Part shown: one piece after another, positions 1,417 to 40,622 of the stretch
How the letters are laid out: the number at the start of each line of letters is the position of its first letter
Position numbering within the stretch: the stretch's first letter is position 1
Assembly: GCA_044224525.1 (NCBI GenBank)
Contig: JBGAKI010000002.1
Span: 20,846 to 84,845 of the forward strand
Direction: 5' to 3'
From: Polyangiales bacterium
GTDB taxonomy: Bacteria; Myxococcota_A; Polyangia; Polyangiales; CBDCBC01
DNA length: 64,000 nt
The notes under the pieces: generated by a model
The model's input: only the letters and a program-made list of their open reading frames with translations
Told to the model about the DNA's origin: nothing
Databases searched by the model: none
Program-made: the position numbers and the translations under genes

Positions 1417-1423
1417 CGATTCA

Positions 1424-3278: not shown

Positions 3279-3370
3279 GGATATCGGCCTAGCCTAATCA
3301 TTCGGCTGCTTAGGTCAATATTTCTCGGCAAATTGTCGACTTTTAAGGGGCTCGGGCCATACTTTGGCGC

Positions 3371-4522: not shown

Positions 4523-5232
4523 TGGTGATGAAGGTTTTTGACGGCGACCCGCGCGACGGTTTAGAGTCGGAGCGCATGCCTTTTAATCGCATTCGCGTTG
4601 AGCACGTGAGCAAACGTCATGGCCGCACCATGGCGTTGAGCGACGTCGAGCTAACGCTTGATGCCGGGCGATTACATATCATTGAAGGGCCCAACGGTTC
4701 GGGAAAAAGCACCCTACTTTCGCTACTTGCGTTGCTCAGTCGCCCGACAACAGGCGCGATTCGTTATGGCGAGCACGAAGGCCAACATGAACGCAACTGG
4801 CTGCATGCCCATATTGGCTTATTGAGTCATGAGCCGATGGTCTATCCTGATTTGTCGGGTTTTGAGAATCTTTGGTTTGCAGCCAGGCTAGCGATGTTGA
4901 AGCATCCTGAGCATCGCATTATTCAGCTCTGTGAACAATGCGACCTTGGCGAGTGGGTGACGCGGCCGGCGCGCACGTATTCGCGCGGACAACTGCAACG
5001 GTTGAGCCTTGCGCGCACGCTGATTCACGTGCCGAAGCTTTTGCTTTTGGACGAGCCCACGGTGGCGCTTGATCATTCAAGTAGCAACCGTGTTGTGAAC
5101 GTGGTGAAAGCAGAAGCCACTCGCGGTGCGATCGTGGTGGTTGTTACGCATGACGTAGAACTTATTTCGGCGCTCGGCGCGGATGCTAAACGCTTCCGTC
5201 TTGAGCAGGGCCGCCTTGGGGAGGCCGCGTGA
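4519..5232 (+). CDS. ccmA: ABC transporter ATP-binding protein, CcmA-like heme exporter
   Basis: Walker A GPNGSGKST, signature YSRGQLQRL, Walker B LLLLDEP. 4-nt overlap with hemW and with the CcmB-like gene. The true start may be the internal MPFNRIRVEH. Confidence 0.75.
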   Translation: MMVMKVFDGDPRDGLESERMPFNRIRVEHVSKRHGRTMALSDVELTLDAGRLHIIEGPNGSGKSTLLSLLALLSRPTTGAIRYGEHEGQHERNWLHAHIGLLSHEPMVYPDLSGFENLWFAARLAMLKHPEHRIIQLCEQCDLGEWVTRPARTYSRGQLQRLSLARTLIHVPKLLLLDEPTVALDHSSSNRVVNVVKAEATRGAIVVVVTHDVELISALGADAKRFRLEQGRLGEAA

Positions 5233-5906
5233 GTGCGATCGTGCAGCTTTTATTGTTGGTGCGACGCGACTTGCGCATCGAACGTAAAAGTAGCGAGGTG
5301 CTGCTGAACACCACGTTGTTTGGTGTGCTGGTGGTGGTGATCGCGTCGCTCGCTTTTTATACTGATCCAGCGAGCGCACCCAAGCTTGCCTCGGGAGTGC
5401 TTTGGCTCTCGCTTGTGTTCAGCGGCATGCTTGCAATGCTGCGCGTGTGGGCGAAAGAACGCGAATGGAATGCGTTTTTGGCGTTGTGGTTGTCGTCAGT
5501 GCCGCGACCGGCGATTTATTTGGCCAAAATGATCAGCACGGTGCTTTTTATGTGTGCGATGGAAGTTGTGCTGATTCCGCTTGTTGCGCTGTTTTTTCAC
5601 CTTGAACTTGATGCGCGGCTTGCAGCGCTTGCGCTGTGTGTGTTCTTGGGCATCGTTGGATACGCTGCTGTGGGCACGCTGTTTGCAGCGATGAGCGTGC
5701 GCACCCGAGCGCGCGAACTAACGCTGAGTCTAGCGCTTTTTCCACTGACCGCGCCCGCGTTGATTGCAGGCGTGGTGGCCACGCGCGGGTTGTTTGTTGA
5801 TGCACCCACTGCTGAGTTGATGCAGTGGATCCGCGTGCTCTTGGCGTTTGATCTGGTGTTTGTGACCGCGAGCGCGCTGTTGTTTGAGCCACTCTTGAGC
5901 GACTAA
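5229..5906 (+). CDS. ccmB: Heme exporter protein B (CcmB-like) membrane protein
   Basis: 225-aa polytopic membrane protein, translationally coupled to the CcmA-like ATPase. The N-terminal LVRRDLRIERKS pattern is typical of CcmB. Confidence 0.75.
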   Translation: MSAIVQLLLLVRRDLRIERKSSEVLLNTTLFGVLVVVIASLAFYTDPASAPKLASGVLWLSLVFSGMLAMLRVWAKEREWNAFLALWLSSVPRPAIYLAKMISTVLFMCAMEVVLIPLVALFFHLELDARLAALALCVFLGIVGYAAVGTLFAAMSVRTRARELTLSLALFPLTAPALIAGVVATRGLFVDAPTAELMQWIRVLLAFDLVFVTASALLFEPLLSD

Positions 5907-5976
5907 TTCTGCGTTTCGCGTTCTGCGTTTCGCGTTCTGCGTTTCGCGTTCTGCGTTTCGCGTTCTGCGTTTCGCG
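5907..5976. repeat. Perfect tandem repeat, 5 x 14 bp (ttctgcgtttcgcg)
   Basis: Read directly. Five identical units start right after the ccmB stop and end 2 nt before the stop of the convergent tlpA-like gene. Confidence 0.95.
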
Positions 5977-5977
5977 A

Positions 5978-6601
5978 TTAGAGCAGCGACTCTAGAATAT
6001 CGAGGGTGAGCGGCGAGGACCAATCGTTGGGTCCGTCATAACGCAAGCGGATCACACCCTCTTTGTCGATGACCCATGTTTCGGGATAAAGCTTGGTGCC
6101 AAACTTATCGCGCACCACGTGGCGATCGGGGTCAAAGAGCACATGCAAGGAAGTTGCACCATGAAACACTTCGGCAACATCGGCCCAGTTTTTGTCGACG
6201 GTGACGGCGACAAGTTCGATGTCGCTACGCGATTTGATTACGTTGGCGAGGTTTTCAAGGCTGGGCATCTCTTCGATGCAAGGCTGACAGGTTTTGGTCC
6301 AGAAGTTTAACACGACAATTTTGCCGCGATGATCGGATAGCTTCCAGGTTTTGCCAAACTGATCTCGTAGTTCAAAATCGGGTGCGATGCGATCGTTGCC
6401 CAGGTAGTGCTGCTCGGTTTTTTTTCCTTGTTTGAGGGCTTTATAGGTTTGCTGGCCGAGCAAGCCTTCAAAGGGCGCCTCTTTGCGGCGCGCTTCGCCG
6501 TGTACAAACGCAATCGCAAGTAGTGTGCATGCAATGGTTGCGAACCCGGCAGCCGCAAGGGTCGGCCATGATAAAGCGCGTTTTTTTGTTTTATCGTTCA
6601 T
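5978..6601 (-). CDS. TlpA/ResA-family thiol:disulfide oxidoreductase (membrane-anchored thioredoxin fold)
   Basis: N-terminal TM segment and the redox motif NFWTKTCQPCIEEMP (CxxC). Confidence 0.85.
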   Translation of the reverse strand: MNDKTKKRALSWPTLAAAGFATIACTLLAIAFVHGEARRKEAPFEGLLGQQTYKALKQGKKTEQHYLGNDRIAPDFELRDQFGKTWKLSDHRGKIVVLNFWTKTCQPCIEEMPSLENLANVIKSRSDIELVAVTVDKNWADVAEVFHGATSLHVLFDPDRHVVRDKFGTKLYPETWVIDKEGVIRLRYDGPNDWSSPLTLDILESLL

Positions 6602-28226: not shown

Positions 28227-29102
28227 CTATTTTGAACCAGATTTGCGCGATTTGTCACTTTTATTTCGTTTGACGCCTTTGCTCGGCTCTTCCTTCTGCG
28301 CGGGCGGGTGGCTTTGGGCCTTGGTTTTTGCTTTGTTATCTGCTGCGACCAACACGACGGTGATGTTGTCTTCGCCGCCATTTTCGTTGGCTTCCTGAAT
28401 CAGCGCCTTGCAACCCTTGTCGAGATTGCCGTCTGCCGCGAGCACAACCTCACAAAGCTTCTCGTCGCTCAGCATGCCGCTTAGACCGTCGGAGCAGAGC
28501 AAAAAGATATCACCTGGCAAAACCTCTTCGGTGGTGACGTCAACGACGACCGTGCTTTGCATGCCAAGTGCGCGGGTAATTACGTTCTTAGGAAGCTCTT
28601 GACGTTGCTCGGGAGAAATGTCTGGCAAGAAGATCATGTACTCGTTGATGAGCGAATGATCGCGGGTCAACATCGTGATCTTTTTGTCGCGTATGCGATA
28701 GGCGCGGCTATCGCCCACATGGGCAATGTATGCGCGTGCGCGATCGGGCACATGCACCAGCGCCACGACGGTCGTGCCCATCCCATACATTTCTTTGTCT
28801 GCGTAAGATGCTTCGAAGATCTTTTTGTTGGCGAGTTTTATGCCCGACACCAAACGATTTTCTTCGACTGTTAATTTAGGATCGTAGTGAAAAGGCCAGG
28901 TCACATCTTCGCGCTGCGTTTCTGAGAAAAAGCGCGAGAGCACTGCTGTGGCCATTTTGCTCGCAATGTCGCCGGCGCGATGACCGCCCATGCCGTCGGC
29001 AACCACGTAAAGAGAATGTTCTTCACAAAGGCAGAAGCTATCTTCGTTATGTTCACGTTGAAGGCCGACGTCGGTTTGACCGGCACAGGTAACCTTAATC
29101 AT
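28227..29102 (-). CDS. PP2C-family Ser/Thr protein phosphatase with a Lys-rich C-terminal tail
   Basis: GQTDVGLQREHNEDS, VADGMGGHRAGDIAS, LLCSDGL, GGEDNITVVLV. Tail KAKTKAQ...KRNKSDKSRKSGSK. Confidence 0.9.
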   Translation of the reverse strand: MIKVTCAGQTDVGLQREHNEDSFCLCEEHSLYVVADGMGGHRAGDIASKMATAVLSRFFSETQREDVTWPFHYDPKLTVEENRLVSGIKLANKKIFEASYADKEMYGMGTTVVALVHVPDRARAYIAHVGDSRAYRIRDKKITMLTRDHSLINEYMIFLPDISPEQRQELPKNVITRALGMQSTVVVDVTTEEVLPGDIFLLCSDGLSGMLSDEKLCEVVLAADGNLDKGCKALIQEANENGGEDNITVVLVAADNKAKTKAQSHPPAQKEEPSKGVKRNKSDKSRKSGSK

Positions 29103-29262
29103 GATAGCTACGCATCACCCTTAGCGGATGATTTTAACCCATATCCGAGCGACTGTCCGCCCCTTGGGGATAAAAACACGAAAAAAGACGGGTCGATTGC
29201 AGGCGGACGCAAGACTGATATAGGCTATATTGGCGGGCGATCAGGTCCTAAACGAGCTTTTA

Positions 29263-30114
29263 ATGCGCGCAAACACACTATCTAATCGGTCACGGGTCAT
29301 TTTAGGCGATAGCCTTGAGGTCCTTCGCACCTTGCCCTCGCAATCGGTGGACCTTGTGTATATCGACCCGCCCTTCAACACAGGCAAGGTGCAAAAGCGC
29401 GTGTTTCTAAAAACCACACGCACTGAAGCGGGCCAGGGCACACGGCGAGGTTTTCAAGGGCAGCACTATCAAAGCGAAGTGCAGAGCGAAGCGGCTTACG
29501 GCGACAAGTTCGACGATTACCTGGCATTCTTAAAGCCGCGCATCGAGGAGACCCATCGCGTGTTGAAGATGACCGGGTCTTTTTACTTTCATATCGATTA
29601 TCGCGAAGTGCATTATTGCAAGGTGCTGATCGATGGCATCTTTGGGCGCGACAATTTTTTGAACGAGATTATTTGGGCATACGACTACGGTGCGCGGGCC
29701 ACCAAACGTTGGCCGGCAAAACACGACAACATCTTGTTTTACGCGCGCGATAAAGGTCAGTATTATTTTGACACTACAGAAGTCGATCGCATTCCGTATA
29801 TGGCGCCAGGCTTGGTGGGCGAGGAAAAAGCTGCAAAGGGAAAACTGCCTACCGATACGTGGTGGCACACCATTGTGAGCCCCACAGGCAAAGAAAAGGT
29901 GGGTTACCCCACACAAAAGCCACTGGGCATTTTGCGGCGCATTGTGCGCGCGTCGTGTCCGCCCGAAGGCGTGGTGCTCGATTTTTTTGCCGGCAGCGGC
30001 ACGACGGGCCACGCTGCACTTGAGTCAGGCAGGCAAGCGATTTTGGTCGACGCGAACCCCGAAGCCGTCGAGATTATCGAACGGCGGCTAAAGCGCGTTA
30101 GTTTGCAGGCTTGA
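29263..30114 (+). CDS. Site-specific DNA methyltransferase, beta-class (N6-adenine or N4-cytosine); orphan
   Basis: Motif IV DLVYIDPPFNTG precedes motif I VLDFFAGSGTTGHAA, with YPTQKPLGIL between them. No nuclease gene is adjacent. The ORF track uses an upstream TTG at 29230. Confidence 0.88.
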   Translation: MRANTLSNRSRVILGDSLEVLRTLPSQSVDLVYIDPPFNTGKVQKRVFLKTTRTEAGQGTRRGFQGQHYQSEVQSEAAYGDKFDDYLAFLKPRIEETHRVLKMTGSFYFHIDYREVHYCKVLIDGIFGRDNFLNEIIWAYDYGARATKRWPAKHDNILFYARDKGQYYFDTTEVDRIPYMAPGLVGEEKAAKGKLPTDTWWHTIVSPTGKEKVGYPTQKPLGILRRIVRASCPPEGVVLDFFAGSGTTGHAALESGRQAILVDANPEAVEIIERRLKRVSLQA

Positions 30115-30284: not shown

Positions 30285-30674
30285 GTGAAGATTTGGATAA
30301 CGTTGTTTGGGGTCGCGCTTTTGGCGAGCGGGTGCCAATCGAAGATTGGTGACAGCTGCGGCTCGTCGATCAACTGCTCGTTTGCGGGTAACCGTATTTG
30401 CGACGGAACTCAACCGAGTGGATATTGTACGATTCGCGGTTGTGAGGCGAACTCGTGCCCGGGTGAAGCCACGTGTGTGAAGTTTAGACCCGACACCGAG
30501 CGACTTTCAAGCACCTGGTGCATGCGTAAATGTGGTGGCAACGGCGATTGCCGCGATGACAGCAGCGCCACGTCGCACTATCGCTGTGTGACCGGCGACG
30601 AGATGGGCACCAACGTTGCGCGCGTGATCGACAAGAACACGGCGCAAACGTTTTGTGCGTCGATGCCGCGCTAA
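30285..30674 (+). CDS. Small cysteine-rich lipoprotein
   Basis: Lipobox LLASGC. The mature part is rich in Cys (CGSSINC, CDG, CTIRGC, NSCPGEATC ...). Confidence 0.6.
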   Translation: MKIWITLFGVALLASGCQSKIGDSCGSSINCSFAGNRICDGTQPSGYCTIRGCEANSCPGEATCVKFRPDTERLSSTWCMRKCGGNGDCRDDSSATSHYRCVTGDEMGTNVARVIDKNTAQTFCASMPR

Positions 30675-30944: not shown

Positions 30945-31889
30945 ATGTATTTTCTTTCGCGAGCATTGCGTGCAGCACTCACCGTTTGGGGTGTGTCGAC
31001 ATTTGCGTTTTTATTATTGAGGCTCACGCCTGGTGATCCAGCGCAGGCGATGCTGGGTGATCAGGCAAGCCCCGCTGAGATTGCAGCGCTGCGCAGCACG
31101 CTTGGGCTTGATCGCTCGATCGGCGTACAATATGCGGATTTTTGTCGGCATGTTGTCGATGGCAGCCTTGGACATTCGTTTCGTAAGCCTGAGCAGAGCG
31201 TGCGCGCCGTGATCAGCGAAGCGTTGCCCAATAGCGCCAAACTCAGCGCGTATGCGCTTGCGATCGCGTGGCCTATTGGCTTAATCCTGGCAATCGCCGC
31301 AGCCCTTTGGCCACGATCGCGCGTCGAGCGCGGGATCGACAACGCGTCGCTCTTGGGCTTGGTGGCACCGAGTCTGTGCACCGCACCGCTCGCCATTTTG
31401 GTCTTCGCTGTCAAGCTTCGATGGTTGCCGCTGCCAGGTGATGACGAGGCGGGTGAAGCGTTGTGGGTGCTACCGGCGGTGATTTTAGCGATTCCACTCG
31501 CGTCGATTTTGACGCGCCAAGTGGGCGCCGCAATGCACACCATTCGCGACGAGCTTTATTATCAAGCGGCGCGGGCGCGCGGCTTATCCCCACTGCGCGT
31601 GTTTATGCGTTATGGCCTGCGCAATGCGCTGCTTACGATTATTACACTCGCGGCGCTTCAACTTGCGGCGCTTCTGACAGGTGTTGTTGTCGTTGAGAAG
31701 ATTTTTGAGCGACCTGGACTTGGGTTGTTGATTCTTGAGGCCTTTAACACGCGCGATCTGCCGTTGATTCAAGGGTGCGTTTGGTTTACTGGGCTCGTGT
31801 ACGCAGTGGTGAATTTTGCGCTGGAAATGGTTTATGGCTGGGCTGATCCGCGCACACGAGAAGCGAGCGCAGATCGAGGAACATCATGA
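30945..31889 (+). CDS. ABC transporter permease (Dpp/Opp B-type)
   Basis: 314-aa polytopic protein with an N-terminus typical of OppB/DppB (ALRAALTVWGVSTFAFLLLRLTPGDP). Confidence 0.88.
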   Translation: MYFLSRALRAALTVWGVSTFAFLLLRLTPGDPAQAMLGDQASPAEIAALRSTLGLDRSIGVQYADFCRHVVDGSLGHSFRKPEQSVRAVISEALPNSAKLSAYALAIAWPIGLILAIAAALWPRSRVERGIDNASLLGLVAPSLCTAPLAILVFAVKLRWLPLPGDDEAGEALWVLPAVILAIPLASILTRQVGAAMHTIRDELYYQAARARGLSPLRVFMRYGLRNALLTIITLAALQLAALLTGVVVVEKIFERPGLGLLILEAFNTRDLPLIQGCVWFTGLVYAVVNFALEMVYGWADPRTREASADRGTS

Positions 31890-32701
31890 ACGCGCGATTT
31901 TTACCCAAGTATCGCGCGGCATTTGGTATATGCGCGCTCTTTGTTGCATTGGCAGCGCTTGGGCGTGCGCTTGCGCCTTATGATCCGCATCGACTTGATC
32001 TGCGCGCAAGCTTTGCCGCGCCATCGACTGCGCATTGGCTGGGCACGGCTGACAATGGTGTTGACTTGTTAAGCGCCCTACTTTACGGCGCACAGCGTTC
32101 GGCGATTGTTGCACTAAGCACTGTCGCGTTGTCGCTTAGCGTGGGCGTGCTGATTGGCGTGGTCGCTGCGGTGCGCGGCGGCACACTTGATTTTGTGCTG
32201 ATGACGGTTGCCGATTGGGTGCAATCTTTTCCAGGACTTGTGCTCAACGTGGCGATTTTTGCCACGGTTAAGGATCCTAATCTGTGGCACTTGGTCGGGG
32301 CGCTATCACTGCATGGTTGGGTGCTTTTTGCGCGACTTGCACGCGCCGAGGCGCTCACGATTCGATCGACCACGTTTATTGAAGCTGCACATGCGCTTGG
32401 GATCCCAGGGTGGCGCGTGTGGCTATTTCATTTCATTCCCAACTTGGCGGCGCCTCAGCTGGTTCAAGCGTCGAACGCGGTGGGTCATGTGATCATTGCC
32501 GAAAGTACGTTGTCATTTTTAGGCGTGGGTCCCTCGTCGAGTTTGTCTTGGGGCTTGCTACTGGATCAAGGACTCGGTGTGCTCTTGGTTCATCCACACA
32601 TCACGTTGATTACGGCAGGGCTGATCGCGGTGGTTGCGCTTGCGTTCAACGTCGCTGGTGATGGCTTGCGCAAGACATGGTTGCTGTCGTCAGGTTCCTA
32701 G
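31886..32701 (+). CDS. ABC transporter permease (Dpp/Opp C-type)
   Basis: 271 aa with 4-nt overlap with the upstream permease. HWLGTADNGVDLLS is typical of OppC/DppC. Confidence 0.88.
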   Translation: MNARFLPKYRAAFGICALFVALAALGRALAPYDPHRLDLRASFAAPSTAHWLGTADNGVDLLSALLYGAQRSAIVALSTVALSLSVGVLIGVVAAVRGGTLDFVLMTVADWVQSFPGLVLNVAIFATVKDPNLWHLVGALSLHGWVLFARLARAEALTIRSTTFIEAAHALGIPGWRVWLFHFIPNLAAPQLVQASNAVGHVIIAESTLSFLGVGPSSSLSWGLLLDQGLGVLLVHPHITLITAGLIAVVALAFNVAGDGLRKTWLLSSGS

Positions 32702-33819
32702 CGATGCCGTTTGCGTCGACGTAGCGCCCAGACGCCGCCAGTGACTAGTGTGAGCGCAAGCAATGTGAGGGCAATCGGGTAAATCCACTCGCGCAGGCGA
32801 CCAAAACGAAGAATCGATTGCTCGGTATCTTTGTCAGGCTCACTCGGGGGCCCTTGTGACTCAAGAGGCTTGCGACCTTTAAGCTCTTCGTGGGTGAGCG
32901 CACGCACGCAAAGGTGGTTCATGACCTCGCGCTCGACGCCGCGCACAAACACTTCTTCAACCCCCGCGTCGTTAAGGCGTGTCTTGCTAGTGTTTTTTTG
33001 CTCGCGCACACCAAGCCCAAGTCGCGCTTCCCAGCGGCCACCACTTGGCGAGCTAACGATATGTCCACTCAAGAACATGGTGCTTGACCCGCCCCCGTCG
33101 AGATTGAGTGCACTGAATGCGCCCAAATCGACAAAGGTGCGTCCAAGTGCGTAGAGCGTCATGCCGCGACTTGAAGTGCGCCGACCGTCGGCCACTATTA
33201 CGATCACCTTGTCGCCAGCTTTATTGACACCAATCGCGGTGCGCGGATGACGCAGCTCGGAGCTTGAAAACGCGTCGAGCGATTTTTCATCAAGTTTGCC
33301 ATCGCGCACCAGCATCGGCTCGCCAGAAAGTGCGTCGCGCAAACGCTCTGGCGCAACGTTTTCAATCACTTGCTCGGGTGGGCTGATCCAGGCCTGCCCT
33401 TGACGGGTTATCGCAAAAAAACCTACCTCTTCGTCGTCATCACCGTCGGGCCAGCGCTGGCCGCCGCCCGCGGTGATTCCTTCAGCGCGCTGCATCATGC
33501 CCCAAAAGCCGCCGTTGGTAGCCGCAACGCAGCGATTTTTTTTGGCGAAATCCGAAACGGGTTGCCAACGATCAGCATAAGGCGTGGCAAAAACCTCGAC
33601 ACCCGGGGCCTTTAAATCGACAACCAACGCGTAAAGCACGCTTGGGATCGACGTGCGGCGCACCAAATAGCGCACGCCCGCATAAGGTTCTGACCACGTG
33701 TCTTCGTAAGTGAAGGGCGTGGTGGCTCCTTCGGTCGCACGCGCATCAGTCGCATAGAGCGAAAAAAACGATACGCTCAGCGCCAACACCAAAAGCTGAA
33801 TGTTTACCCTTGAACGCAT
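32698..33819 (-). CDS. Phosphodiester glycosidase family protein (NAGPA-like, DUF2233) with a C-terminal TM anchor
   Basis: Signal peptide from MRSRVNIQLLVLALS (the ORF track extends to 33945). ATNGGFWG and LNLDGGGSSTM motifs. C-terminal TM plus RRRKRHR. Confidence 0.75.
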   Translation of the reverse strand: MRSRVNIQLLVLALSVSFFSLYATDARATEGATTPFTYEDTWSEPYAGVRYLVRRTSIPSVLYALVVDLKAPGVEVFATPYADRWQPVSDFAKKNRCVAATNGGFWGMMQRAEGITAGGGQRWPDGDDDEEVGFFAITRQGQAWISPPEQVIENVAPERLRDALSGEPMLVRDGKLDEKSLDAFSSSELRHPRTAIGVNKAGDKVIVIVADGRRTSSRGMTLYALGRTFVDLGAFSALNLDGGGSSTMFLSGHIVSSPSGGRWEARLGLGVREQKNTSKTRLNDAGVEEVFVRGVEREVMNHLCVRALTHEELKGRKPLESQGPPSEPDKDTEQSILRFGRLREWIYPIALTLLALTLVTGGVWALRRRKRHR

Positions 33820-33936
33820 GTTCGCCGAAGTGTGCACTCTGTTGGGCCGTCGCTCAAGTGCCGGAAAAAAAAGGCTGCAAAGAGCGCTTTTAACGGTTGA
33901 CCCAGACGCATAGCTGCGCTTTGTTTTAGGGGTCCA

Positions 33937-35181
33937 ATGCGTCATTTTATAAATGAATCCGCTACCTTGCCACGAGTCAATCTGCGGCGCTTAAGACTGC
34001 TGCGCTTTGGGATGGTGATACTGTGGTCGCTTGCGGCATGTGGCGGGCGCAACGTGCAGCATAAAAAGCCCAAAAAAGTCACCGATGCCGGAGCGACGCT
34101 TAGCACAGCACCGGACAATAGCAGTCGGCTGGGTTTGGTGAACGGATTGTTTTTTGGTCTGCCTGAAAACAAACAACGCGATAGCCTTGCGGCAAGCGAG
34201 ATCCGCGACGTGAAACTGGGGTCGGGTGGGCGTAGCATCGGTTTTAAGATCACGTTGACCGATGGCACGGTGGGCTATTTTAAGCCAGAGCAGACATTCT
34301 CGGGTGCACACTATTATTCCGAACTTGCGTCGTATTATTTAGATCGCGAGCTTGGCATTGGGCGCGTGCCGCCAACGGTGGGACGCAGGGTCGACTGGAA
34401 GCTGCTTGTGAAGCCGCTTGGATATGATGTGCGGCGCGAAGAGTTAATTGTCCCTAAGGACGAACAATTACGCGGTGCATTTATTTGGTGGGTGCCCGAG
34501 AAGCTAATTCCGATTCGACCAGGAAAAAACTGGGAGCGGTGGATTCGCATTCGTGGATGGCCTTCATCGGCGGTTACACCTTTTCAGCGCCCGCGTGTTT
34601 ATCTGCAAAAGCTTGGCATCGTGCCTACGGGTGACGAGGCCGCGGCACTGCCAAACTCAGAAACGCCTGCACCTGCGGGCGCTCAGGACGTTCAAGATGC
34701 TCAGCGCGCTGAAACCGCCGGCCTTGGCGAGGTGTCACGCCAGAGCGCGCCAGCAACGAAGGAACCCGAAGCGGTCAAAGAGCCCGACACGCCCGAGCGC
34801 GCCGCTGAGCTCTCGGATATGATTGTGTTTGATTATTTAATTATTAATCTTGATCGCTGGGGTGGCGAGTACACAAATGTGCGCACGCGCGGCGAACATG
34901 GACCTTTGATCTACTTGGACAATGGCGCTGGGTTTATTGCGCAGGCCTCCAATGGATTAATGCGCGCCCGGCTGCATGCTGTGGAAAAGTTTCGCAAAGC
35001 AACAATCGACGCCATTCGCGCGCTGGATATCGATAAGCTTGAAAAGCGCATGCAAACAGACCCCCTTTGGCCTTTTATTACTGAACAACATCTGACTCAC
35101 CTCGCGGCACGTAAACAAGATGTGTTGGACCACGTTGAAGCGATGCATGCTAAATATGGCGATGCCATTTACGCCTGGTGA
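33937..35181 (+). CDS. Fam20-like (secretory-pathway kinase-like) lipoprotein
   Basis: Lipobox LAACGG. Collinear matches to recalled Fam20C motifs: GYFKPEQ (FKPMK), YSELASYYLDRELGIGRVPPTVGR (AEIAAFHLDRILDFRRVPP), VFDYLIINLDRWGGEY (FDFLMGNMDRHHYE), IYLDNGAGF (IHLDNGRGF), TEQHLTHLAARK (QPHLEALDRR). Confidence 0.7.
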   Translation: MRHFINESATLPRVNLRRLRLLRFGMVILWSLAACGGRNVQHKKPKKVTDAGATLSTAPDNSSRLGLVNGLFFGLPENKQRDSLAASEIRDVKLGSGGRSIGFKITLTDGTVGYFKPEQTFSGAHYYSELASYYLDRELGIGRVPPTVGRRVDWKLLVKPLGYDVRREELIVPKDEQLRGAFIWWVPEKLIPIRPGKNWERWIRIRGWPSSAVTPFQRPRVYLQKLGIVPTGDEAAALPNSETPAPAGAQDVQDAQRAETAGLGEVSRQSAPATKEPEAVKEPDTPERAAELSDMIVFDYLIINLDRWGGEYTNVRTRGEHGPLIYLDNGAGFIAQASNGLMRARLHAVEKFRKATIDAIRALDIDKLEKRMQTDPLWPFITEQHLTHLAARKQDVLDHVEAMHAKYGDAIYAW

Positions 35182-35187
35182 TGGTTT

Positions 35188-36231
35188 ATGACGCCACGTT
35201 TTGCACACATGATGCCCGCCGAGTGGGCCAAGCACGACGCGTATTGGCTGGCGTGGCCCGCTGATGGCGCGCTTTGGCTTGAGAATCTAGCGCCTGCTCA
35301 AACAAGTTGGCTCAAGATGGCGCGAGCGATCGGCGAAAAGAGAACGAGTGGTGCGCCCGCCGAACGTCTTGAGATCTTGGTGCATCCTGATGTGGACGAT
35401 CAAACAGTGCATCGCATGCTTAGTGAACTTGGCGACGTTGACTCGCGCATTCATCGCATACCTTATGGCGATATTTGGCTGCGCGATACAGCGCCACTTT
35501 TTATGCGTGGTCGTGATGGGACCGTCAGCAACGTGCGGTTTCGGTTTAACGGTTGGGGCGGAAAATACGTGCTGGTGCATGACGATAACGTCGCTGAACG
35601 CATTGCGCAGGCGGCTGACATGCCAAGTCAAGCCTTTGAGTGGATCCTTGAGGGTGGTGCGGTTGAAGTAAACGGCGAGGGCCTTTGTTTAACGACTGAA
35701 AGCTGTCTACTTAATCCCAATCGCGGCGTGACCGAGCGCGGTGTCATCGAAGCGCATTTGTGCGAAGCGTTGGGCGTTGAGAAAGTGGCGTGGCTGCGAC
35801 GTGGCTTGAACTTTGATCATACCGACGGGCATGTCGACAATATTGCGCGCTTTGTTAGCGAGGACACGGTGGTGTGTATGCGACAAAGCAGCCCGACCGA
35901 CCCGCATGCGGATGCCTACCCGCTTATTCGGGAAGACTTGCTGCGTGTGCGCAACACCAAGGGCACCAAGCTCAACATCGTGGAGGTACCCTCGCCAGGT
36001 GTGGTGCTGAGCACAAATGGCGAGCCCATGCCCGCCAGTTACCTTAATTTTATTATTGCCAATCACACGGTGGTCGTGCCGGTTTATGGCACCGCGCATG
36101 ACGAGGCCGCGTTGAAGGTGCTCGAGTCGTTATTTAAAGGTCGGCGTATCGTACCCGTGGAGGCATATGCTATCCTGTCGGGCGGCGGCGCCTTTCATTG
36201 CATCTCGCAACAACAACCTTCTCAGGGTTAA
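35188..36231 (+). CDS. aguA: Agmatine deiminase
   Basis: MPAEWAKHDAYWLAWP N-terminus and the C-terminal catalytic Cys motif GGGAFHCISQQQP. Confidence 0.9.
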   Translation: MTPRFAHMMPAEWAKHDAYWLAWPADGALWLENLAPAQTSWLKMARAIGEKRTSGAPAERLEILVHPDVDDQTVHRMLSELGDVDSRIHRIPYGDIWLRDTAPLFMRGRDGTVSNVRFRFNGWGGKYVLVHDDNVAERIAQAADMPSQAFEWILEGGAVEVNGEGLCLTTESCLLNPNRGVTERGVIEAHLCEALGVEKVAWLRRGLNFDHTDGHVDNIARFVSEDTVVCMRQSSPTDPHADAYPLIREDLLRVRNTKGTKLNIVEVPSPGVVLSTNGEPMPASYLNFIIANHTVVVPVYGTAHDEAALKVLESLFKGRRIVPVEAYAILSGGGAFHCISQQQPSQG

Positions 36232-36253
36232 GCAGCGCCAAAGAGGACACATC

Positions 36254-37105
36254 ATGGCTGGCAGCGATTCGATTATTTTAGGGGTGGTGCAGTGTGAACT
36301 AAATAACAGCCCCTACGAGAACATTGCGCTTTTGAGTGAGCTTATACGTGAGGTGTCTAACCAAGGTGCACAGGTGATCTGCCTGCCGGAGTTGATCGAA
36401 GGGCCTTATTTTTGTAAAAGTGCGGACGATACTTTTTTTGATCAGGCACAACCGCTTAATGACCATCCTGTCGTGCACGGGTTTTCGCAAATCGCGCGTA
36501 AGAACAATGTGGTGCTGCCGGTGTCGCTCTTTGAACGTGATGGGAACCATTTTTATAATACGGTGGTGATCATCGATGCCGATGGCGAAGTGCTTGGCAG
36601 CTATCGCAAGAGCCATATTCCCACCGGACCGGGTTACGAAGAAAAGTATTATTTTAGACCTGGGCAAAGCGGCTTCAAGGTTTGGCAAACACAATATGGT
36701 GTGGTCGGCGTGGGCATCTGCTGGGATCAATGGTTTCCGGAGTGTGCGCGAGCGATGGCGTTGATGGGCGCCGAGGTGCTGCTTTACCCCACGGCGATTG
36801 GTTCTGAACCCGCCAACCCTCAACTTGACACCTCGGCACCGTGGCAACGTGCGATGATCGGGCACGCAGTATGTAACGCCATGCCAATTGCTGCTGCCAA
36901 TCGCATCGGCACCGAAGAGGGGCAACGTTTTTATGGGCGGTCGTTCATATGCGATCATCGCGGCGATACGGTGGCCGACTTGGGAGCGCGGCAAAATGTC
37001 GGCCTTGCTAGCTTTAGTCGCAAGGAGCTCGCACGTTATCGCGCGGCGTTTGGCTTTTTTCGCGACCGGCGGCCAGAGCTTTACGGTGATCTAGTTAAAG
37101 CCTAG
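36254..37105 (+). CDS. aguB: N-carbamoylputrescine amidase (CN-hydrolase)
   Basis: Nitrilase-superfamily motifs LPEL, YRKSHIP and GVGICWDQWFPE. Directly follows aguA. Start chosen at MAGSDSIILG (the ORF track starts at 36167). Confidence 0.9.
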   Translation: MAGSDSIILGVVQCELNNSPYENIALLSELIREVSNQGAQVICLPELIEGPYFCKSADDTFFDQAQPLNDHPVVHGFSQIARKNNVVLPVSLFERDGNHFYNTVVIIDADGEVLGSYRKSHIPTGPGYEEKYYFRPGQSGFKVWQTQYGVVGVGICWDQWFPECARAMALMGAEVLLYPTAIGSEPANPQLDTSAPWQRAMIGHAVCNAMPIAAANRIGTEEGQRFYGRSFICDHRGDTVADLGARQNVGLASFSRKELARYRAAFGFFRDRRPELYGDLVKA

Positions 37106-37249
37106 TGGGTTGCTCAGTTACGACCCTCGGTAACAGACTTTGTCTGTCAGAAATACAAGGACGCGGTTGAGGCAAGGAAGTTTGTTGCACTAGCCTCCCC
37201 ATCCTCGTTTTGGTATCTTTCTAGACACGGCATGGGTGCAAGGATGTCT

Positions 37250-37948
37250 ATGAAAGTTTTACGAGTGGTTTTTGTCTTAAGTGTTGTTGCGTCTTGTAGC
37301 AACGAGGCCCCCCTTGCCGATGTATCCATGGCGGTTGGGCCGAGTCTTTGCTCGTTGCAAGCACTGGCGCAAAAAACGCTTACGCTGCGCTGCAAACGGC
37401 GCTTTGCACCTTGGGGGACACCTAAACGCGCGGCGCATAATCTCGATTTAGGGCATCGAGACTATACGGTCTATCGCGGACGGAGCCAGGGCGTAGCACA
37501 GCTCGAAGTAGCCAACGTGGACGATCGTACCTTCGTACCGGGGATTGCCGCCGATCTTTTAGACAATCTCATTGAAGAAGGCTTCTTTGAAGGGGAAACA
37601 GTTTCGACGATCAAGGCCAGTCGCGTGCACATGGTCGTTTATCAGTGCGCGCGCGGTGCGGGGCTTGAATGTGGCGACAAGATTTACACCCCTGCAGAGG
37701 AAGGCGGCGAGATCAACCAGACGCTTGCCGAACGCGCAGAGCGACATCTAACCAGCTACATCGATGATGTGCTTACGACAGTCCGCCGGGAGTGCAACGC
37801 CCATGGCCGAACACTCAATATTAACGGTCAACGCAACGTTGTGCGACATCGTTGTAAAGAATTCAATGGCACGAATGTGCAGATAAGCCAGTGCAGCGTA
37901 GACGATGAGGGTTGGCTTAGTGCCGACGCGTTCGAAGAGCAGGAGTAA
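37250..37948 (+). CDS. Hypothetical lipoprotein
   Basis: MKVLRVVFVLSVVASCS lipobox with AAGGA 7 nt upstream. No family recognised. Confidence 0.55.
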   Translation: MKVLRVVFVLSVVASCSNEAPLADVSMAVGPSLCSLQALAQKTLTLRCKRRFAPWGTPKRAAHNLDLGHRDYTVYRGRSQGVAQLEVANVDDRTFVPGIAADLLDNLIEEGFFEGETVSTIKASRVHMVVYQCARGAGLECGDKIYTPAEEGGEINQTLAERAERHLTSYIDDVLTTVRRECNAHGRTLNINGQRNVVRHRCKEFNGTNVQISQCSVDDEGWLSADAFEEQE

Positions 37949-38015: not shown

Positions 38016-39799
38016 CTATTGCTCAGAAATTATGACTCTTACCGAGGTGGGGTCGTGGGGTTCGGGGCGCGCGCCGGTGGTGCGCACGAGACCAATGTTG
38101 AGGCCAAGTTGATCGATGAGCACTTTTTCGCCATATGAGACTTCGTGCCATGATCGCAGTATGTCGCCCTTGCGTAACCACGCCGGCGAAAGCAGGCCGT
38201 CGAATAAGAGATCGACGCGCCTGGGTTGAAAGCCAACGCCAAAACGTAAAGCGAGATCGTGCGCGCATGCTTCGTGTGCGGTTAAGTAGAGCGCGACGCC
38301 TTGTGTTCCAGCGTTGCCATCGGATGTTTCCCAGCGCGCGCGGTTCACCGATAAGCATCGTGTCAAGGGTTGGTCGCTCGCAAAGAACTGTTTAGCCTTC
38401 ACAAAATAACGAGCGGCATCACCCTTTCGGCCTGAGCGCCATTTGCGCAGCATGAGCCAAGGGCCAAAGCGGCGCGGCTCGCCATATTTTGGGCGCGCCA
38501 TCCAGTTGCGCACGTTGGGCTCTTCGTCCACGCGAATCAAGCCGTCGTCGTGTAAGAAGCGATCGCGATGACTGATATCGAGCACAATGATATGCCCGCC
38601 TTGATCGGGTGGGGGTTGGCGAAATGCTTCGACGCGTTCGGCCAAATGTGGCAGCAGTGCGTCGGGTGCTTGCAATGGCGTGTCAGGCCCAATCAGCGCC
38701 AAGAGAGCGCGCGATTGAACAGTTCGCGTGTCGGCGTGAAACATCGACCATTGGTAGTTTTTTGAGATGGGACTTGCGCCTTTGTAATAATGAAACGCAG
38801 CGAGTGATGATAGACAAGACACGATGAGCACGTTTCGCAGAGATGGCACGCGTTTTACGATGCGGCTTAACCCATCGATGCTTGCAAACATCAAGGGCGC
38901 GAGCGCAGGCGTAAGATAGTGTGAGCCTAGATCAAGCGTGCCAGGAAATTGCGAGAGTAGATTGATCGCAAGGATGGGCAAGGCGCAAACCATCCATTTT
39001 GGTGAAAGCCACGCCAAACCAAGCAGCGGCATTGTAATCAACGGCAGATAGGTAATGCGCTCTTTTGAAAACAGGTATGCGATCAGATCAAGCGGGTGCG
39101 TAACGACGTAAAACAACGCCTGACTGAAGGTTTTACCGAAGCGACCGAAATGCTGCTCCATCGAACCGCCCGGGGGTGCAAAGATCGGATGTAAGATCAG
39201 AACAAAGATCGCAAAGTAGATCAACGACACCTTGATAATGCGCTGCGCCACGCGCTCTTGCGCTGAATCGCCTTCGAGCCAAGCGATGGATGCTAAAAGT
39301 GATGTCATCAAGGCCAAGTCTTCGCGGCACATCAACACGCCGATGCAAGCGCGATAAAGCAGCTTTGCGTCTTTGCGATCGAGCGCCTCGAGCGCCCAGG
39401 CGAGCGGCAGAAGCGCGATCGTGCCGGGATGAAATTCGCTGGTCAACACCTCGGTGAGGTTGGGGTAAAGCACCCATGCGGCGCAAACCAGAAACGCGCC
39501 ACAGGCACGGTGCCAAAGATTGCGCCAAGCGCACCGAGTGGAATGAGGACGGGCGAAATGTGTAAACCCACAATGGGTGCATTAAGGATCGAGACCCACG
39601 GCACCAAATGCACCATGCCCCACGCCATGCGTGCGTAAAACGCAAGATCGAAGGTTTGGTTGTGCACCGTATGAAAGCGTGCGAACGCCATCCACAACCA
39701 AACGGGCACTGCTGCGGCTGGAAGCATCCAGCACAGCGCAATCAGTAATTTAGTGCGATGACGCGACGATGCGGCCGGTTCGGCGAATGAACCCGTCAT
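38016..39799 (-). pseudogene. DUF2079-like polytopic membrane protein split by a frameshift
   Basis: The N-terminal 118-aa ORF (39443..39799, FDLAFYARMAWG...GLHISPVLIPL) and the 485-aa ORF (38016..39473) overlap in different frames. Together they form one DUF2079-length protein. Frame analysis implies a single 1-nt indel near 39445-39530. Confidence 0.6.
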
Positions 39800-39806
39800 G
39801 GCAGGT

Positions 39807-40622
39807 TTAGTGAATGCCTTGACTCTCGAAATAACGAATGCCGGTTTCCACTGAACTCAGTAGCGATTCGTGCACAAGCTTGGCAACCTCGTTGGGTGAT
39901 TGCTTGAGCGCTTCGTAATAACGTTGACGCTCGGTAAAATGAATGATGATCGGCGGGTAGCCTTGGCGCAGCGCGATCAGGTTCATGATTAAGCGCGCCA
40001 CCTTTCCGCTGTGCTTGTTGAAGGGATAGATATACAAAAGCTCGGCATGCGCGCGAGACGCAAGGCGCAAGGGGTGCGTTGTGCGCTGGGTTTCGGGTGC
40101 GTTGATCCAGTCGATCAATAAGCGCATGCGATAGCCAATCTTGTCGGGCGGCGCGATGTCGTGAAAGTACAAGCGATGTAGCGGCATGTCTTTGCGATAT
40201 TTCACCGCTGCTTTGGTTGGCGCTTCGTCGGGCGCAAGGATGCAGTAAATCTGCTTGATGACTTCGAGGGTGATGGCTGCTTTCTTCTTGTCCGTCATCT
40301 CGCGCACAAGCGTGATCGCCTGCATTGACTGGCGGATCTCGTCATAAAGCGGTGCGAGCGCGGGATCGGTGGGCTCTTGTCCGCCGAGCGCGGCGTTGAG
40401 TTCGGGGGGATTGTAAACAACACCTTCGAGTGCGCTATCGTGATAGATCCACGATAACCGCAACCGTTCGTAGTACCCATCGAGAACCTCAGGACGCGCT
40501 TTAGCAATAAGTGCTTGTAAACGTCTGACCTTGTCGTCGGTGCTAACGAGTTGCGAGGTGTTATCCACTATCTCTCTTTGCCTCTTGCTGTTGTCGGTCT
40601 GGCCCGCAGCGTTTGGGATCAT
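39807..40622 (-). CDS. Fic-fold protein with a degenerate active-site motif
   Basis: HDSALEGV upstream motif. At the position of HPFx[DE]GNGRxxR the sequence reads YPFNKHSGKVAR, with the catalytic His replaced by Tyr. Confidence 0.8.
   Translation of the reverse strand: MIPNAAGQTDNSKRQREIVDNTSQLVSTDDKVRRLQALIAKARPEVLDGYYERLRLSWIYHDSALEGVVYNPPELNAALGGQEPTDPALAPLYDEIRQSMQAITLVREMTDKKKAAITLEVIKQIYCILAPDEAPTKAAVKYRKDMPLHRLYFHDIAPPDKIGYRMRLLIDWINAPETQRTTHPLRLASRAHAELLYIYPFNKHSGKVARLIMNLIALRQGYPPIIIHFTERQRYYEALKQSPNEVAKLVHESLLSSVETGIRYFESQGIH

What the first reader, a model, noticed from the sequence alone, without database searches (positions are those of the whole stretch)
32698..35181. Divergent pair of two 'Golgi-type' enzymes: NAGPA-like phosphodiester glycosidase and Fam20-like kinase
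The NAGPA-like (DUF2233) phosphodiester glycosidase has NGGFWG and LNLDGGGSS motifs and is membrane-anchored at its C-terminus. It is transcribed divergently from the Fam20-like lipoprotein, across a shared control region of about 120 bp (33820-33936).

Both families are best known from the eukaryotic secretory pathway: the mannose-6-phosphate uncovering enzyme, and the secretory kinases. The pairing suggests a coupled extracytoplasmic phosphorylation and phosphodiester-processing module acting on a glycan or glycoprotein. The functional link is inferred from adjacency only.
Basis: inference. Interest (0 to 1): 0.6.

Follow-up and report, generated by a model that had tools for sequence, protein, structure and literature searches.

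The report
Conserved myxobacterial Fam20 kinase–NAGPA glycosidase pair
Two exported enzymes best known from the animal Golgi, a Fam20-type kinase and an NAGPA-type phosphodiester glycosidase, sit back-to-back here and in many related myxobacteria, so the pairing is inherited rather than accidental, but it is not obligatory and its function is untested.

Summary
32698-33819(-) encodes a 373-aa NAGPA/DUF2233 protein with a signal peptide, an invariant DGGGS motif and a C-terminal membrane anchor. 33937-35181(+) encodes a 414-aa Fam20-fold lipoprotein with all kinase catalytic residues. They are divergent across 117 bp.

- Starting from Fam20-like genes in 80 species-level genomes, an orthologous NAGPA gene is the immediate upstream neighbour in 11. 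That is 11 of 27 evaluable deep-branching loci, scattered over nearly all deep subclades, 10 of them divergent.
- A shallow 47-species clade has none.
- Starting from NAGPA orthologues, 5 of 6 blind look-ups have the divergent Fam20 neighbour, 114-143 bp away, with unrelated outer flanks.
- 80 generic NAGPA loci have no Fam20 gene.

So the pair looks like an ancestral unit of Polyangia-type Myxococcota that has been lost repeatedly. The more widely conserved partner of the kinase gene is the downstream aguA-aguB-like pair (62/80 loci, often overlapping stop/start).

A kinase makes phosphomonoesters and NAGPA needs phosphodiesters, so the two are not obvious consecutive steps. Any shared substrate is inferred. 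An ATP source outside the cytoplasm is unexplained.

The parts
32698..33819 (-). NAGPA-like phosphodiester glycosidase gene. 373 aa, type I membrane topology: signal peptide, catalytic core, disordered linker, C-terminal TM helix and a basic tail.
   Evidence: ORF. Pfam PF09992, 119 bits. Profile hits to 3ohg (3.1e-22) and vertebrate NAGPA 6pku (2.3e-18). AF2 pLDDT 82.9. Foldseek top hits are 3ohg and the NAGPA structures.
33736..33819 (-). Predicted signal peptide of the NAGPA-like protein, residues about 1-28.
   Evidence: Hydrophobic window from residue 5. AF2 helix at residues 2-23. Aligned hydrophobic N-termini followed by A-x-A-Q/E in orthologues.
33007..33537 (-). NAGPA (PF09992) catalytic domain. 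Contains NGGFWG (33499-33516) and LNLDGGGSS (33082-33108).
   Evidence: D241-G-G-G-S is invariant in 10 orthologues; in the 44-orthologue set D241-G242-G243-G244 and S246 are invariant and S245 is at least 90% conserved. The DGGGS motif and its Asp (human D286) are essential in human NAGPA (PMC13474241).
32701..32802 (-). Conserved juxtamembrane GRLREW motif (32785-32802), TM helix (32722-32784) and cytoplasmic RRRKRHR tail (32701-32721).
33820..33936 (.). 117-bp divergent intergenic spacer.
   Evidence: Sequence. Spacers of 114-179 bp in 6 of 7 gene-called paired loci. No conserved motif. No sigma-70-like site inside it.
33937..35181 (+). Fam20-like kinase gene. 414 aa, a lipoprotein with a disordered tether (residues about 36-65) and a disordered insert (residues about 234-270).
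   Evidence: ORF. PF06702, 47.6 bits. Family profile against human Fam20C 5yh3, E 3.7e-23, over both lobes. AF2 pLDDT 79.9. The top 28 Foldseek hits are all Fam20A/B/C, E about 1e-13.
34030..34041 (+). Lipobox L-A-A-C (Cys35).
   Evidence: It follows RRLRLLR and a hydrophobic stretch. Lipobox Cys or a plain signal peptide is seen in homologues.
34276..34935 (+). Kinase active-site motifs: YFKPE (K116, 34276-34290), SELASYYLDR (E129, 34318-34347), NLDRWGG (D306, 34846-34866), LDNGAGF (D328/N329, 34915-34935).
   Evidence: K116, E129, D306, D328 and N329 are invariant in 46 homologues. They align with the FKP, EIAAFHLDR, MDRH and LDNGRGF motifs of human Fam20C.
35188..36231 (+). aguA-like gene (PAD_porph, agmatine-deiminase-like). 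It starts 6 nt after the Fam20-like stop codon.
   Evidence: PF04371, 351 bits. TIGR03380 scores 232 bits, below its cutoff of 381.8. Found downstream of the Fam20-like gene in 62 of 80 loci, immediately downstream in most.
36167..37105 (+). aguB-like gene (N-carbamoylputrescine-amidase-like CN hydrolase). The likely start is M30, at 36254.
   Evidence: PF00795, 187 bits. TIGR03381 scores 400 bits against a cutoff of 410.25. Present in 60 of 80 loci.
38016..39799 (-). DUF2079 membrane-protein gene, syntenic with the block and disrupted in this window.
   Evidence: PF09852. The two tblastn segments are in different frames (39506-39766 and 38034-39500) and about 29 residues are missing. DUF2079 lies within 10 kb in 14 of 33 deep loci and in L161, L164 and L165.
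30945..32701 (+). Two ABC (Opp/Dpp-type) permease genes, convergent with the NAGPA-like gene.
   Evidence: PF00528 and PF19300. The same arrangement occurs in L164 and L001. In L064, L066, L072 and L077 the permease gene abuts the Fam20-like gene with NAGPA missing.

Best explanation
The locus holds an ancestral, vertically inherited divergent gene pair of Polyangia-type Myxococcota. It encodes two enzymes that work outside the cytoplasm.

- The NAGPA-like protein is anchored in the inner membrane by a C-terminal helix, with its catalytic domain in the periplasm. This is the same type I topology as human NAGPA. It most likely removes a sugar, probably GlcNAc, from a sugar-1-phosphodiester and leaves a phosphomonoester.
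- The Fam20-like protein is a lipid-anchored kinase on a flexible tether with a complete active site. It most likely transfers phosphate from a nucleotide to a hydroxyl of an envelope glycan or glycoprotein.

I propose that they act in parallel on the same envelope phospho-glycoconjugate, as two routes to phosphomonoester groups, and not as consecutive steps. I also propose that they are co-regulated from the short spacer. The kinase gene is in addition co-transcribed with the cytoplasmic aguA/aguB-like genes.

Shown: family, fold, catalytic residues, predicted export and anchoring signals, recurrent adjacency. Inferred: shared substrate, co-regulation, phosphate donor.
For: Identity of both proteins. 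Invariant catalytic residues.

Export and anchoring signals.

Adjacency:
- 11 of 27 evaluable deep Fam20-seeded loci, spread over almost all deep subclades; 10 divergent, and 1 co-directional with a gap of about 170 bp.
- Both closest complete relatives have the pair.
- 5 of 6 blind NAGPA-orthologue look-ups have it.
- The spacer is 114-179 bp in 7 of 8 gene-called loci.

The outer flanks differ: permease, TonB_C-like, sulfate transporter, 2-hydroxyacid dehydrogenase, NUDIX, Ser/Thr kinase. Only the pair is constant.

None of 80 generic NAGPA loci has a Fam20 gene.

Distance matrices of the two proteins correlate: r = 0.40, Mantel 32/2000.

An unrelated Fam20-like subfamily is divergently paired with a polysaccharide deacetylase, another glycan-acting enzyme.
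Against: - The pair is not obligatory. Of the shallow 47-species clade, 46 loci are evaluable and none has NAGPA. 16 evaluable deep loci also have none. In four loci NAGPA is missing from an otherwise syntenic block.
- One orthologous NAGPA gene lacks a Fam20 neighbour.
- The complete chromosome CP070713.1 shows a Fam20-like protein (P0109) but no NAGPA orthologue among the listed hits. This is only suggestive, because the lists are truncated.
- No conserved spacer motif and no promoter.
- The surrounding genes are housekeeping. No glycan-synthesis or GlcNAc-1-P-transferase gene was found among the ORFs scanned.
- No ATP source is known in the periplasm (general knowledge).
- Other Fam20-like subfamilies have unrelated contexts.
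- The correlation of distances is expected from shared species history alone.
Confidence: 0.45

Rival explanations
1. Inherited synteny only. The two genes are neighbours because of common descent within one bacterial class. They work on different substrates, and the adjacency decays by neutral loss.
For: - All paired loci belong to one group of Myxococcota.
- Wider synteny also recurs: Cys-rich lipoprotein, ABC permeases, aguA/B and DUF2079.
- The kinase gene persists without NAGPA in 62 evaluable loci.
- There is no conserved spacer motif.
- In eukaryotes the two families have no functional link (established knowledge).
Against: - The pair outlasts all of its flanks. Six different families sit on the far side of NAGPA in eight gene-called loci.
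- Orientation and spacer length are kept down to about 36-38% pairwise protein identity.
- 5 of 6 NAGPA orthologues keep the partner.
Confidence: 0.35
2. The functional partners of the Fam20-like gene are the downstream aguA/aguB-like genes, which belong to arginine and polyamine metabolism. NAGPA is incidental.
For: - aguA-like is present in 62 and aguB-like in 60 of 80 loci, mostly 30-45 bp downstream on the same strand.
- The gap is 6 nt here, and the genes overlap by 10 nt in L162 and L168.
- In the shallow clade the operon reads OCD/mu-crystallin, Fam20-like, aguA, aguB, thiE.
Against: - The kinase is exported, whereas the AguA-like and AguB-like proteins lack signal peptides.
- Many paired loci have no aguA/B at all: L005, L033, L051, L061, L065, L069, L073, L076, L161, L164, L165 and L169.
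- There is no known chemistry linking a Fam20 kinase to agmatine.
Confidence: 0.12
3. The Fam20-like lipoprotein is released, for example on vesicles, and acts on prey or neighbouring cells where ATP is available. NAGPA is a separate housekeeping envelope enzyme.
For: - The protein has a lipoprotein signal followed by a long disordered tether.
- The lack of periplasmic ATP makes an external or foreign-cell site attractive (general knowledge).
- Many Myxococcota are predatory (general knowledge).
Against: - The gene lies in a core housekeeping neighbourhood and in an operon with metabolic genes.
- It is a single-copy, vertically inherited family without the variability typical of effectors.
- No secretion-system genes are adjacent.
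Confidence: 0.08

Closest known systems
Eukaryotic Fam20 secretory-pathway kinases (Fam20C Golgi casein kinase, Fam20B xylose kinase, Fam20A pseudokinase)
   Same: - Same Pfam family and same fold.
- Same active-site residues: the FKP Lys, the helix-C Glu, the DR(H/W) catalytic Asp and the DNG metal-binding Asp.
- Located on the non-cytoplasmic side of a membrane.
   Different: - Only 15-20% identical to the solved structures.
- A bacterial lipoprotein or signal-peptide protein rather than a type II Golgi protein.
- Smaller, with a disordered tether and insert.
- Substrate and phosphate donor are unknown.
- Operon-linked to aguA/aguB-like genes.
NAGPA / mannose-6-phosphate uncovering enzyme, and bacterial DUF2233 proteins (BACOVA_00430, PDB 3ohg)
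   Same: - Same domain and fold, with the invariant DGGGS motif.
- Signal peptide plus a C-terminal TM helix and a short cytoplasmic tail, as in human NAGPA (PMC13474241).
   Different: - No EGF-like stalk. A short disordered linker and a subfamily-specific VRGVEREVMNH / GRLREW module take its place.
- No evidence for a furin-type propeptide.
- The substrate cannot be a mannose-6-phosphate N-glycan of lysosomal enzymes.
- The partner that would make the phosphodiester, a GlcNAc-1-P transferase or Stealth protein, was not found among the ORFs scanned.
CotH spore-coat kinases of Bacillus
   Same: Bacterial atypical kinases related to Fam20C that modify a cell-surface structure (PMC12189002).
   Different: - This protein matches PF06702 Fam20C, and no CotH match appeared at E up to 0.01.
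- It keeps the DNG motif.
- It is exported through a lipoprotein signal, whereas CotH acts in the mother cell.
Conserved divergently transcribed gene pairs used as predictors of functional association
   Same: The head-to-head orientation and short spacer are retained across divergent genomes.
   Different: Such pairs typically join a regulator and its target. Here both products are enzymes, and no shared operator could be detected.

Membership tests
Fam20 kinase family (PF06702) | Sequence match above the curated Pfam threshold | tested here: met
   47.6 bits against a cutoff of 26.8, E 2.1e-12. PF06702 is precomputed for all 120 listed homologues.
Fam20 kinase family (PF06702) | Fam20 fold covering both the N-lobe and the C-lobe | tested here: met
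   The family profile hits 5yh3 Fam20C at E 3.7e-23 in two stretches covering both lobes. The AF2 model's top 28 Foldseek hits are all Fam20A/B/C, with TM 0.45-0.60. PI4KII comes next.
Fam20 kinase family (PF06702) | Catalytic residues: ATP-binding Lys, helix-C Glu, catalytic Asp, metal-binding Asp of DNG | tested here: met
   K116, E129, D306 and D328/N329 are invariant in 46 sequences. They align to the FKP, EIAAFHLDR, MDRH and LDNGRGF motifs of human Fam20C. Human residue numbers are recalled from memory and were not tested.
Fam20 kinase family (PF06702) | Residence on the lumenal or extracytoplasmic side | tested here: met
   Lipobox LAAC after a basic and hydrophobic leader. Homologues carry a lipobox, a signal peptide or an N-terminal anchor. 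This is a sequence prediction only.
Fam20 kinase family (PF06702) | Phosphotransfer to S-x-E proteins or to a glycan xylose | not testable with these tools
   Needs an enzyme assay.
NAGPA / DUF2233 phosphodiester glycosidases (PF09992) | Sequence match above the curated threshold, and the fold | tested here: met
   119 bits against a cutoff of 25. Profile hits to 3ohg (3.1e-22) and 6pku (2.3e-18). Foldseek hits to 3ohg (1.6e-15) and vertebrate NAGPA (about 1e-13).
NAGPA / DUF2233 phosphodiester glycosidases (PF09992) | Invariant DGGGS motif with the essential Asp (human D286) | tested here: met
   LNLDGGGSS at residues 238-246. D241-G-G-G-S is invariant in 10 orthologues; in the 44-orthologue set D241-G244 and S246 are invariant and S245 is at least 90% conserved. 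The role of the motif is taken from PMC13474241.
Vertebrate NAGPA (uncovering enzyme) architecture | Type I membrane protein: signal peptide, lumenal core, C-terminal TM helix, cytosolic tail | tested here: met
   The human architecture is described in PMC13474241.
Vertebrate NAGPA (uncovering enzyme) architecture | Cysteine-rich EGF-like stalk and a furin-cleaved inhibitory propeptide | tested here: not met
   No EGF domain by Pfam. Residues 272-330 are low-confidence or disordered, with no Cys-rich module. The propeptide was not assessed.
Vertebrate NAGPA (uncovering enzyme) architecture | Hydrolysis of GlcNAc-alpha-1-P-6-Man | not testable with these tools
   Needs an enzyme assay.
Agmatine deiminase pathway (AguA/AguB) | Score above the NCBIfam equivalog cutoffs | tested here: not met
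   AguA-like: TIGR03380 232 bits against 381.8. AguB-like: TIGR03381 400 bits against 410.25. Family-level membership in PF04371 and PF00795 is clear; the exact substrate is not established.
Functionally coupled conserved gene pair | Adjacency retained across divergent genomes while the flanks change | tested here: inconclusive
   Retained in 11 of 27 deep Fam20-seeded loci and 5 of 6 NAGPA-seeded loci, with varied flanks. Absent in a 47-species clade and in 16 other loci.
Functionally coupled conserved gene pair | Co-expression or a shared regulatory site | tested here: inconclusive
   No conserved motif in 6 aligned spacers. No sigma-70-like site in the spacer. Expression data are not available.

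The most novel reading that the evidence does not exclude
Polyangia-type Myxococcota possess a working extracytoplasmic, nucleotide-dependent Fam20 kinase system. It is genetically linked to an NAGPA-type uncovering enzyme and forms a bacterial 'phospho-glycan editing' pair. That pair shares ancestry with two Golgi enzymes, or was the source of them, in line with proposals of myxobacterial contributions to the eukaryotic endomembrane system.
Probability: 0.07. Interest if true: 0.85.

Novelty: new variant of a known kind. Interest (0 to 1): 0.5.

Why it matters
Fam20 kinases are treated in the kinase literature as eukaryote- or metazoan-specific (PMC9758233). Only a 2026 preprint lists FAM20B among possible myxobacterial contributions to eukaryotes.

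This work shows a sizeable bacterial family: 770 representatives at 50% identity with E up to 1e-10. Its members have intact catalytic residues and export signals. That raises a concrete question: how does a kinase work outside the bacterial cytoplasm, and on what substrate?

The recurrent link to an NAGPA-type enzyme gives a testable first hypothesis, a phosphorylated envelope glycoconjugate. It also gives a pair of genes to knock out together.

If the link is only synteny, the finding reduces to two new members of known families.

Tried and rejected
- Metagenome scan seeded with the NAGPA alignment. The NLDGGGSS pattern pulled in generic DUF2233 genes (at most 42% identity over the best segment for most; short best segments reach 52%) rather than orthologues. 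It was useful only as a background: 0 of 80 have Fam20.
- Alignment of six spacers. No conserved block.
- Sigma-70 and terminator scan. Nothing convincing in the spacer.
- Clustering all ORFs of the 80 loci. It was confounded by spurious antisense ORFs in GC-rich DNA, so it was replaced by targeted tblastn/jackhmmer and by gene-called look-ups.
- Identifying the source contig or names. P0001 is not on record for contig look-up, and the cluster look-ups gave no names, apart from one Kofleriaceae member.
- Testing whether DUF2079 is a GT-C glycosyltransferase. There was no PDB sequence hit and no cross-family Pfam hit. The GT-C clan assignment is only my recollection and is not used as evidence.
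- A literature search for a described bacterial Fam20/NAGPA pair. None was found.
- A crude lipobox regular expression over all loci. It missed the window's own lipobox, and its counts (24 of 42 deep loci flagged, 8 of 47 shallow) are too noisy to separate deep from shallow clades or NAGPA-linked from unlinked genes.
- The idea that the kinase and the glycosidase are consecutive steps was rejected on chemical grounds. One makes a monoester; the other needs a diester.


Full report
**1. What is there**

The window, about 54% GC, carries two long ORFs at the stated place.

The ORF 32698..33945(-) matches Pfam PF09992 NAGPA: E 3.1e-34, 119 bits. Alignment with orthologues puts its start at the Met at 33819, giving 373 aa. 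After the start come:
- a hydrophobic signal sequence;
- the catalytic domain, with NGGFWG at 33499-33516 and LNLDGGGSS at 33082-33108;
- a conserved VRGVEREVMNH segment;
- a disordered linker;
- a conserved GRLREW motif;
- one hydrophobic helix at 32722-32784;
- the tail RRRKRHR.

The ORF 33937..35181(+), 414 aa, matches PF06702 Fam20C with 47.6 bits against a cutoff of 26.8. It begins with a basic and hydrophobic leader that ends in the lipobox LAAC, with Cys35. With these starts the spacer is 33820-33936, 117 bp.

**2. Are the family assignments sound?**

For the kinase:
- A profile of 20 homologues hits human Fam20C (5yh3) at E 3.7e-23. It also hits zebrafish Fam20C, Fam20A, the C. elegans enzyme and Hydra Fam20 (xylosylkinase). 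The matches fall in two stretches covering both lobes.
- The AF2 model has pLDDT 79.9 and is disordered at residues 1-10, 36-65 and 234-270.
- The model retrieves only Fam20 structures in its first 28 Foldseek hits, at E about 1e-13, followed by type II PI4-kinases.
- K116 (YFKPE), E129, D306 (NLDRWGG) and D328/N329 (LDNGAGF) are invariant in 46 homologues. They align with the FKP, EIAAFHLDR, MDRH and LDNGRGF motifs of Fam20C.
- So an active kinase, not a pseudokinase, is predicted.

For the glycosidase:
- The orthologue profile hits Bacteroides DUF2233 (3ohg, 3.1e-22) and vertebrate NAGPA (6pku, 2.3e-18).
- The AF2 model has pLDDT 82.9 and retrieves the same structures.
- The DGGGS motif is conserved: invariant in 10 orthologues, and in the 44-orthologue set D241-G244 and S246 are invariant with S245 at least 90% conserved. 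Its Asp is essential in human NAGPA (PMC13474241).
- The topology is signal peptide, core, C-terminal TM helix and short tail. This is that of human NAGPA, but there is no EGF-like stalk.

**3. Is the pairing conserved?**

*Starting from the kinase.* The kinase family is large. More than 413 clusters were found in the word-indexed search, and every hit that carries a source name is a Myxococcota-type MAG. The exhaustive search found 1572, 770 and 167 representatives at E up to 1e-3, 1e-10 and 1e-30.

A scan of one genome per species returned 80 loci with flanks of up to 10 kb. tblastn and an iterated jackhmmer search found an NAGPA gene next to the Fam20-like gene in 11 of them. aguA-like genes were found in 62 and aguB-like genes in 60.

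A neighbour-joining tree and a position table resolve this:
- 47 loci form one shallow, densely sampled clade. Its proteins are 333 aa with a plain signal peptide. None of its loci has NAGPA (46 are evaluable), and 45 have aguA/aguB immediately downstream. In L023 the operon reads OCD/mu-crystallin, Fam20-like, aguA, aguB, thiE.
- The other 33 loci are deep-branching, and 27 have enough upstream sequence to evaluate. Of those, 11 have NAGPA as the immediate upstream gene.
- Ten of the 11 are divergent. One (L075) is co-directional, with a gap of about 170 bp.
- The NAGPA-linked loci occur in nearly every deep subclade.
- In L064, L066, L072 and L077 the ABC permease gene abuts the kinase gene. 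In the window that permease gene lies beyond NAGPA, so NAGPA has been lost from an otherwise syntenic block.

*Starting from the glycosidase.* The reciprocal test gives a stronger picture. 80 generic NAGPA loci from metagenomes contain no Fam20 gene. The window's NAGPA instead belongs to a distinct orthologous subfamily of about 110 clusters.

Six of its members on long contigs were chosen without knowledge of their neighbours:
- Five have a divergent Fam20C-domain gene 114-143 bp away: L161, L162, L164, L165 and L167.
- One, L166, has AhpC and Rce1-like genes there instead, with aguA/B still nearby.

The two closest complete relatives of the window's kinase also carry the pair (L168 and L169). 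L169 has no aguA/B and entirely different flanks.

Across the eight gene-called paired loci, the gene beyond NAGPA belongs to six different families. Only the pair itself is constant. Pairwise identities within paired loci go down to about 38% for NAGPA and 36% for Fam20. The two distance matrices correlate modestly (r = 0.40, Mantel 32/2000). That is compatible with joint vertical inheritance but not diagnostic.

**4. Interpretation**

The simplest history is an ancestral block in this class of Myxococcota: Cys-rich lipoprotein, ABC permeases, NAGPA, then Fam20-like, aguA, aguB and DUF2079. From this block NAGPA, aguA/B or DUF2079 have been lost or moved in different lineages.

The NAGPA/Fam20 adjacency survives more flank turnover than any other junction. 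It also keeps its orientation and spacer length. This is what selection for co-regulation or co-inheritance would produce, and it is why I rank functional coupling first.

The coupling is facultative. Most sampled species keep the kinase without an adjacent NAGPA gene.

The mechanism cannot be the linear one implied by 'phosphorylation and phosphodiester processing':
- A kinase produces a phosphomonoester.
- NAGPA hydrolyses a sugar-1-phosphodiester made by a sugar-1-phosphate transferase (PMC13474241; established pathway knowledge).
- No such transferase was seen among the ORFs scanned between about 20.5 and 47 kb. Those are housekeeping genes: MiaB-like, glutathione synthetase, GGT, GDH, CdsA, a histidine kinase and an Omp85 protein.

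My working model is therefore two parallel routes to phosphomonoester groups on one envelope glycoconjugate. One enzyme is tethered to the inner membrane and the other is held by a lipid anchor on a long flexible linker.

An independent hint towards glycans comes from a distant Fam20-like subfamily. It is divergently paired, 80 bp apart, with a polysaccharide deacetylase (L170/L171). Another subfamily sits in an operon with a HEAT-like protein and an MFS transporter instead, so no general rule emerges.

The main physical objection is the phosphate donor, because the periplasm is not known to contain ATP.

**5. The aguA/aguB link**

The kinase stop codon and the aguA-like start are 6 nt apart here. 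They overlap by 10 nt in L162 and L168. This is the most widespread association of the kinase gene.

Both downstream proteins lack signal peptides. Both score below the NCBIfam equivalog cutoffs: 232 against 381.8, and 400 against 410.25. I find no chemical rationale for a link to an exported kinase. Twelve paired loci lack aguA/B altogether. I therefore treat it as co-transcription of uncertain meaning and list it as a rival explanation.

**6. Comparison with what is known, and novelty**

Both proteins are clear members of their Pfam families. The membership table lists what was met and what was not: the EGF stalk is absent, and the equivalog cutoffs are not reached.

- NCBI already labels the NAGPA orthologues 'phosphodiester glycosidase family protein'. 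The kinase homologues are 'hypothetical'.
- The literature searched contains no description of a bacterial Fam20/NAGPA pair.
- A kinome survey calls the FAM20 cluster eukaryote- or Metazoa-specific.
- One 2026 preprint lists FAM20B among possible myxobacterial contributions to endomembrane functions, with equivocal signal.

I rate the finding a new variant of known kinds. It is an exported bacterial Fam20 kinase family with a recurrent but dispensable genetic link to an NAGPA-type enzyme. Interest is moderate (0.5): the existence and topology of the kinase family is the more surprising part, and the pairing supplies a testable hypothesis rather than a mechanism.

Noticed in passing
window 35182-37105; L001-L080: The Fam20-like gene is followed on the same strand by aguA-like and aguB-like genes in 62 and 60 of 80 species loci. 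The gap is 6 nt here, and the genes overlap by 10 nt in L162 and L168. In the shallow clade the operon is OCD/mu-crystallin, Fam20-like, aguA, aguB, thiE. Why an exported kinase is co-transcribed with cytoplasmic arginine and polyamine enzymes is unexplained.
   Followed up: partly
window 38016-39799 (-): The DUF2079 membrane-protein gene is broken. Homology to the L161 orthologue runs in frame -1 (39506-39766) and then in frame -3 (38034-39500), with about 29 residues missing. This is either a pseudogene or an assembly error. DUF2079 is a recurrent member of the syntenic block (14 of 33 deep loci, plus L161, L164 and L165).
   Followed up: partly
L170 4769-7251; L171 4243-6725: A more distant Fam20-like lipoprotein (P0324, about 165 bits to the family profile) is divergently paired, 80 bp apart, with a Polysacc_deac_1 (CE4) gene. 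This is a second case of a bacterial Fam20-like gene placed head-to-head with a glycan-acting enzyme.
   Followed up: no
L172 6001-10030; L173 6001-9908: Another Fam20-like subfamily, with an N-terminal membrane anchor and including a Kofleriaceae member, lies in a conserved three-gene operon. The order is Fam20-like, a protein of 440-490 aa (with HEAT repeats in L173, no Pfam match in L172), then an MFS transporter.
   Followed up: no
L166 (JACKEJ010000004.1) 1423-6299: An NAGPA orthologue has no Fam20 neighbour. Rce1-like and AhpC/TSA genes occupy the position, while aguA/aguB remain about 1.7 kb away. This looks like replacement of the kinase gene.
   Followed up: no
L075 8686-13409 (OZ245758.1): The NAGPA, Fam20-like, aguA and aguB genes all lie on one strand, with a gap of about 170 bp between NAGPA and Fam20. 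This is the only co-directional arrangement found.
   Followed up: no
window 30285-30674 (+): A 129-aa Cys-rich predicted lipoprotein has no Pfam family. It is conserved upstream of the ABC permease genes in 10 of the 80 loci and so is part of the same syntenic block.
   Followed up: no
window 37232-37948 (+): A 238-aa predicted lipoprotein (leader ending VVASC) lies between aguB and DUF2079. It has no Pfam match and no homologue in any of the 80 related loci, so it may be a lineage-specific insertion.
   Followed up: no
window 39807-40622 (-); L165 1-275: A Fic-domain gene lies next to DUF2079 in the window. A Fic gene is also near DUF2079 in L165, so this may be a further syntenic element.
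   Followed up: no
L057 and L060 (MAG P01_F01_bin.48): One MAG carries both locus types on different contigs. L057 is of the shallow-clade type without NAGPA and is nearly identical to L056 from another bin. L060 is NAGPA-linked. This is either true paralogy or a binning artefact.
   Followed up: no
window 28227-30114: A PP2C-type Ser/Thr phosphatase-like ORF (28227-29102, -) is divergent from a 294-aa ORF resembling a DNA methyltransferase (29230-30114, +). Both labels are judged from the translated sequence only; neither ORF was run against a family library. They have almost no counterpart in the related loci (3 and 1 hits of 80).
   Followed up: no
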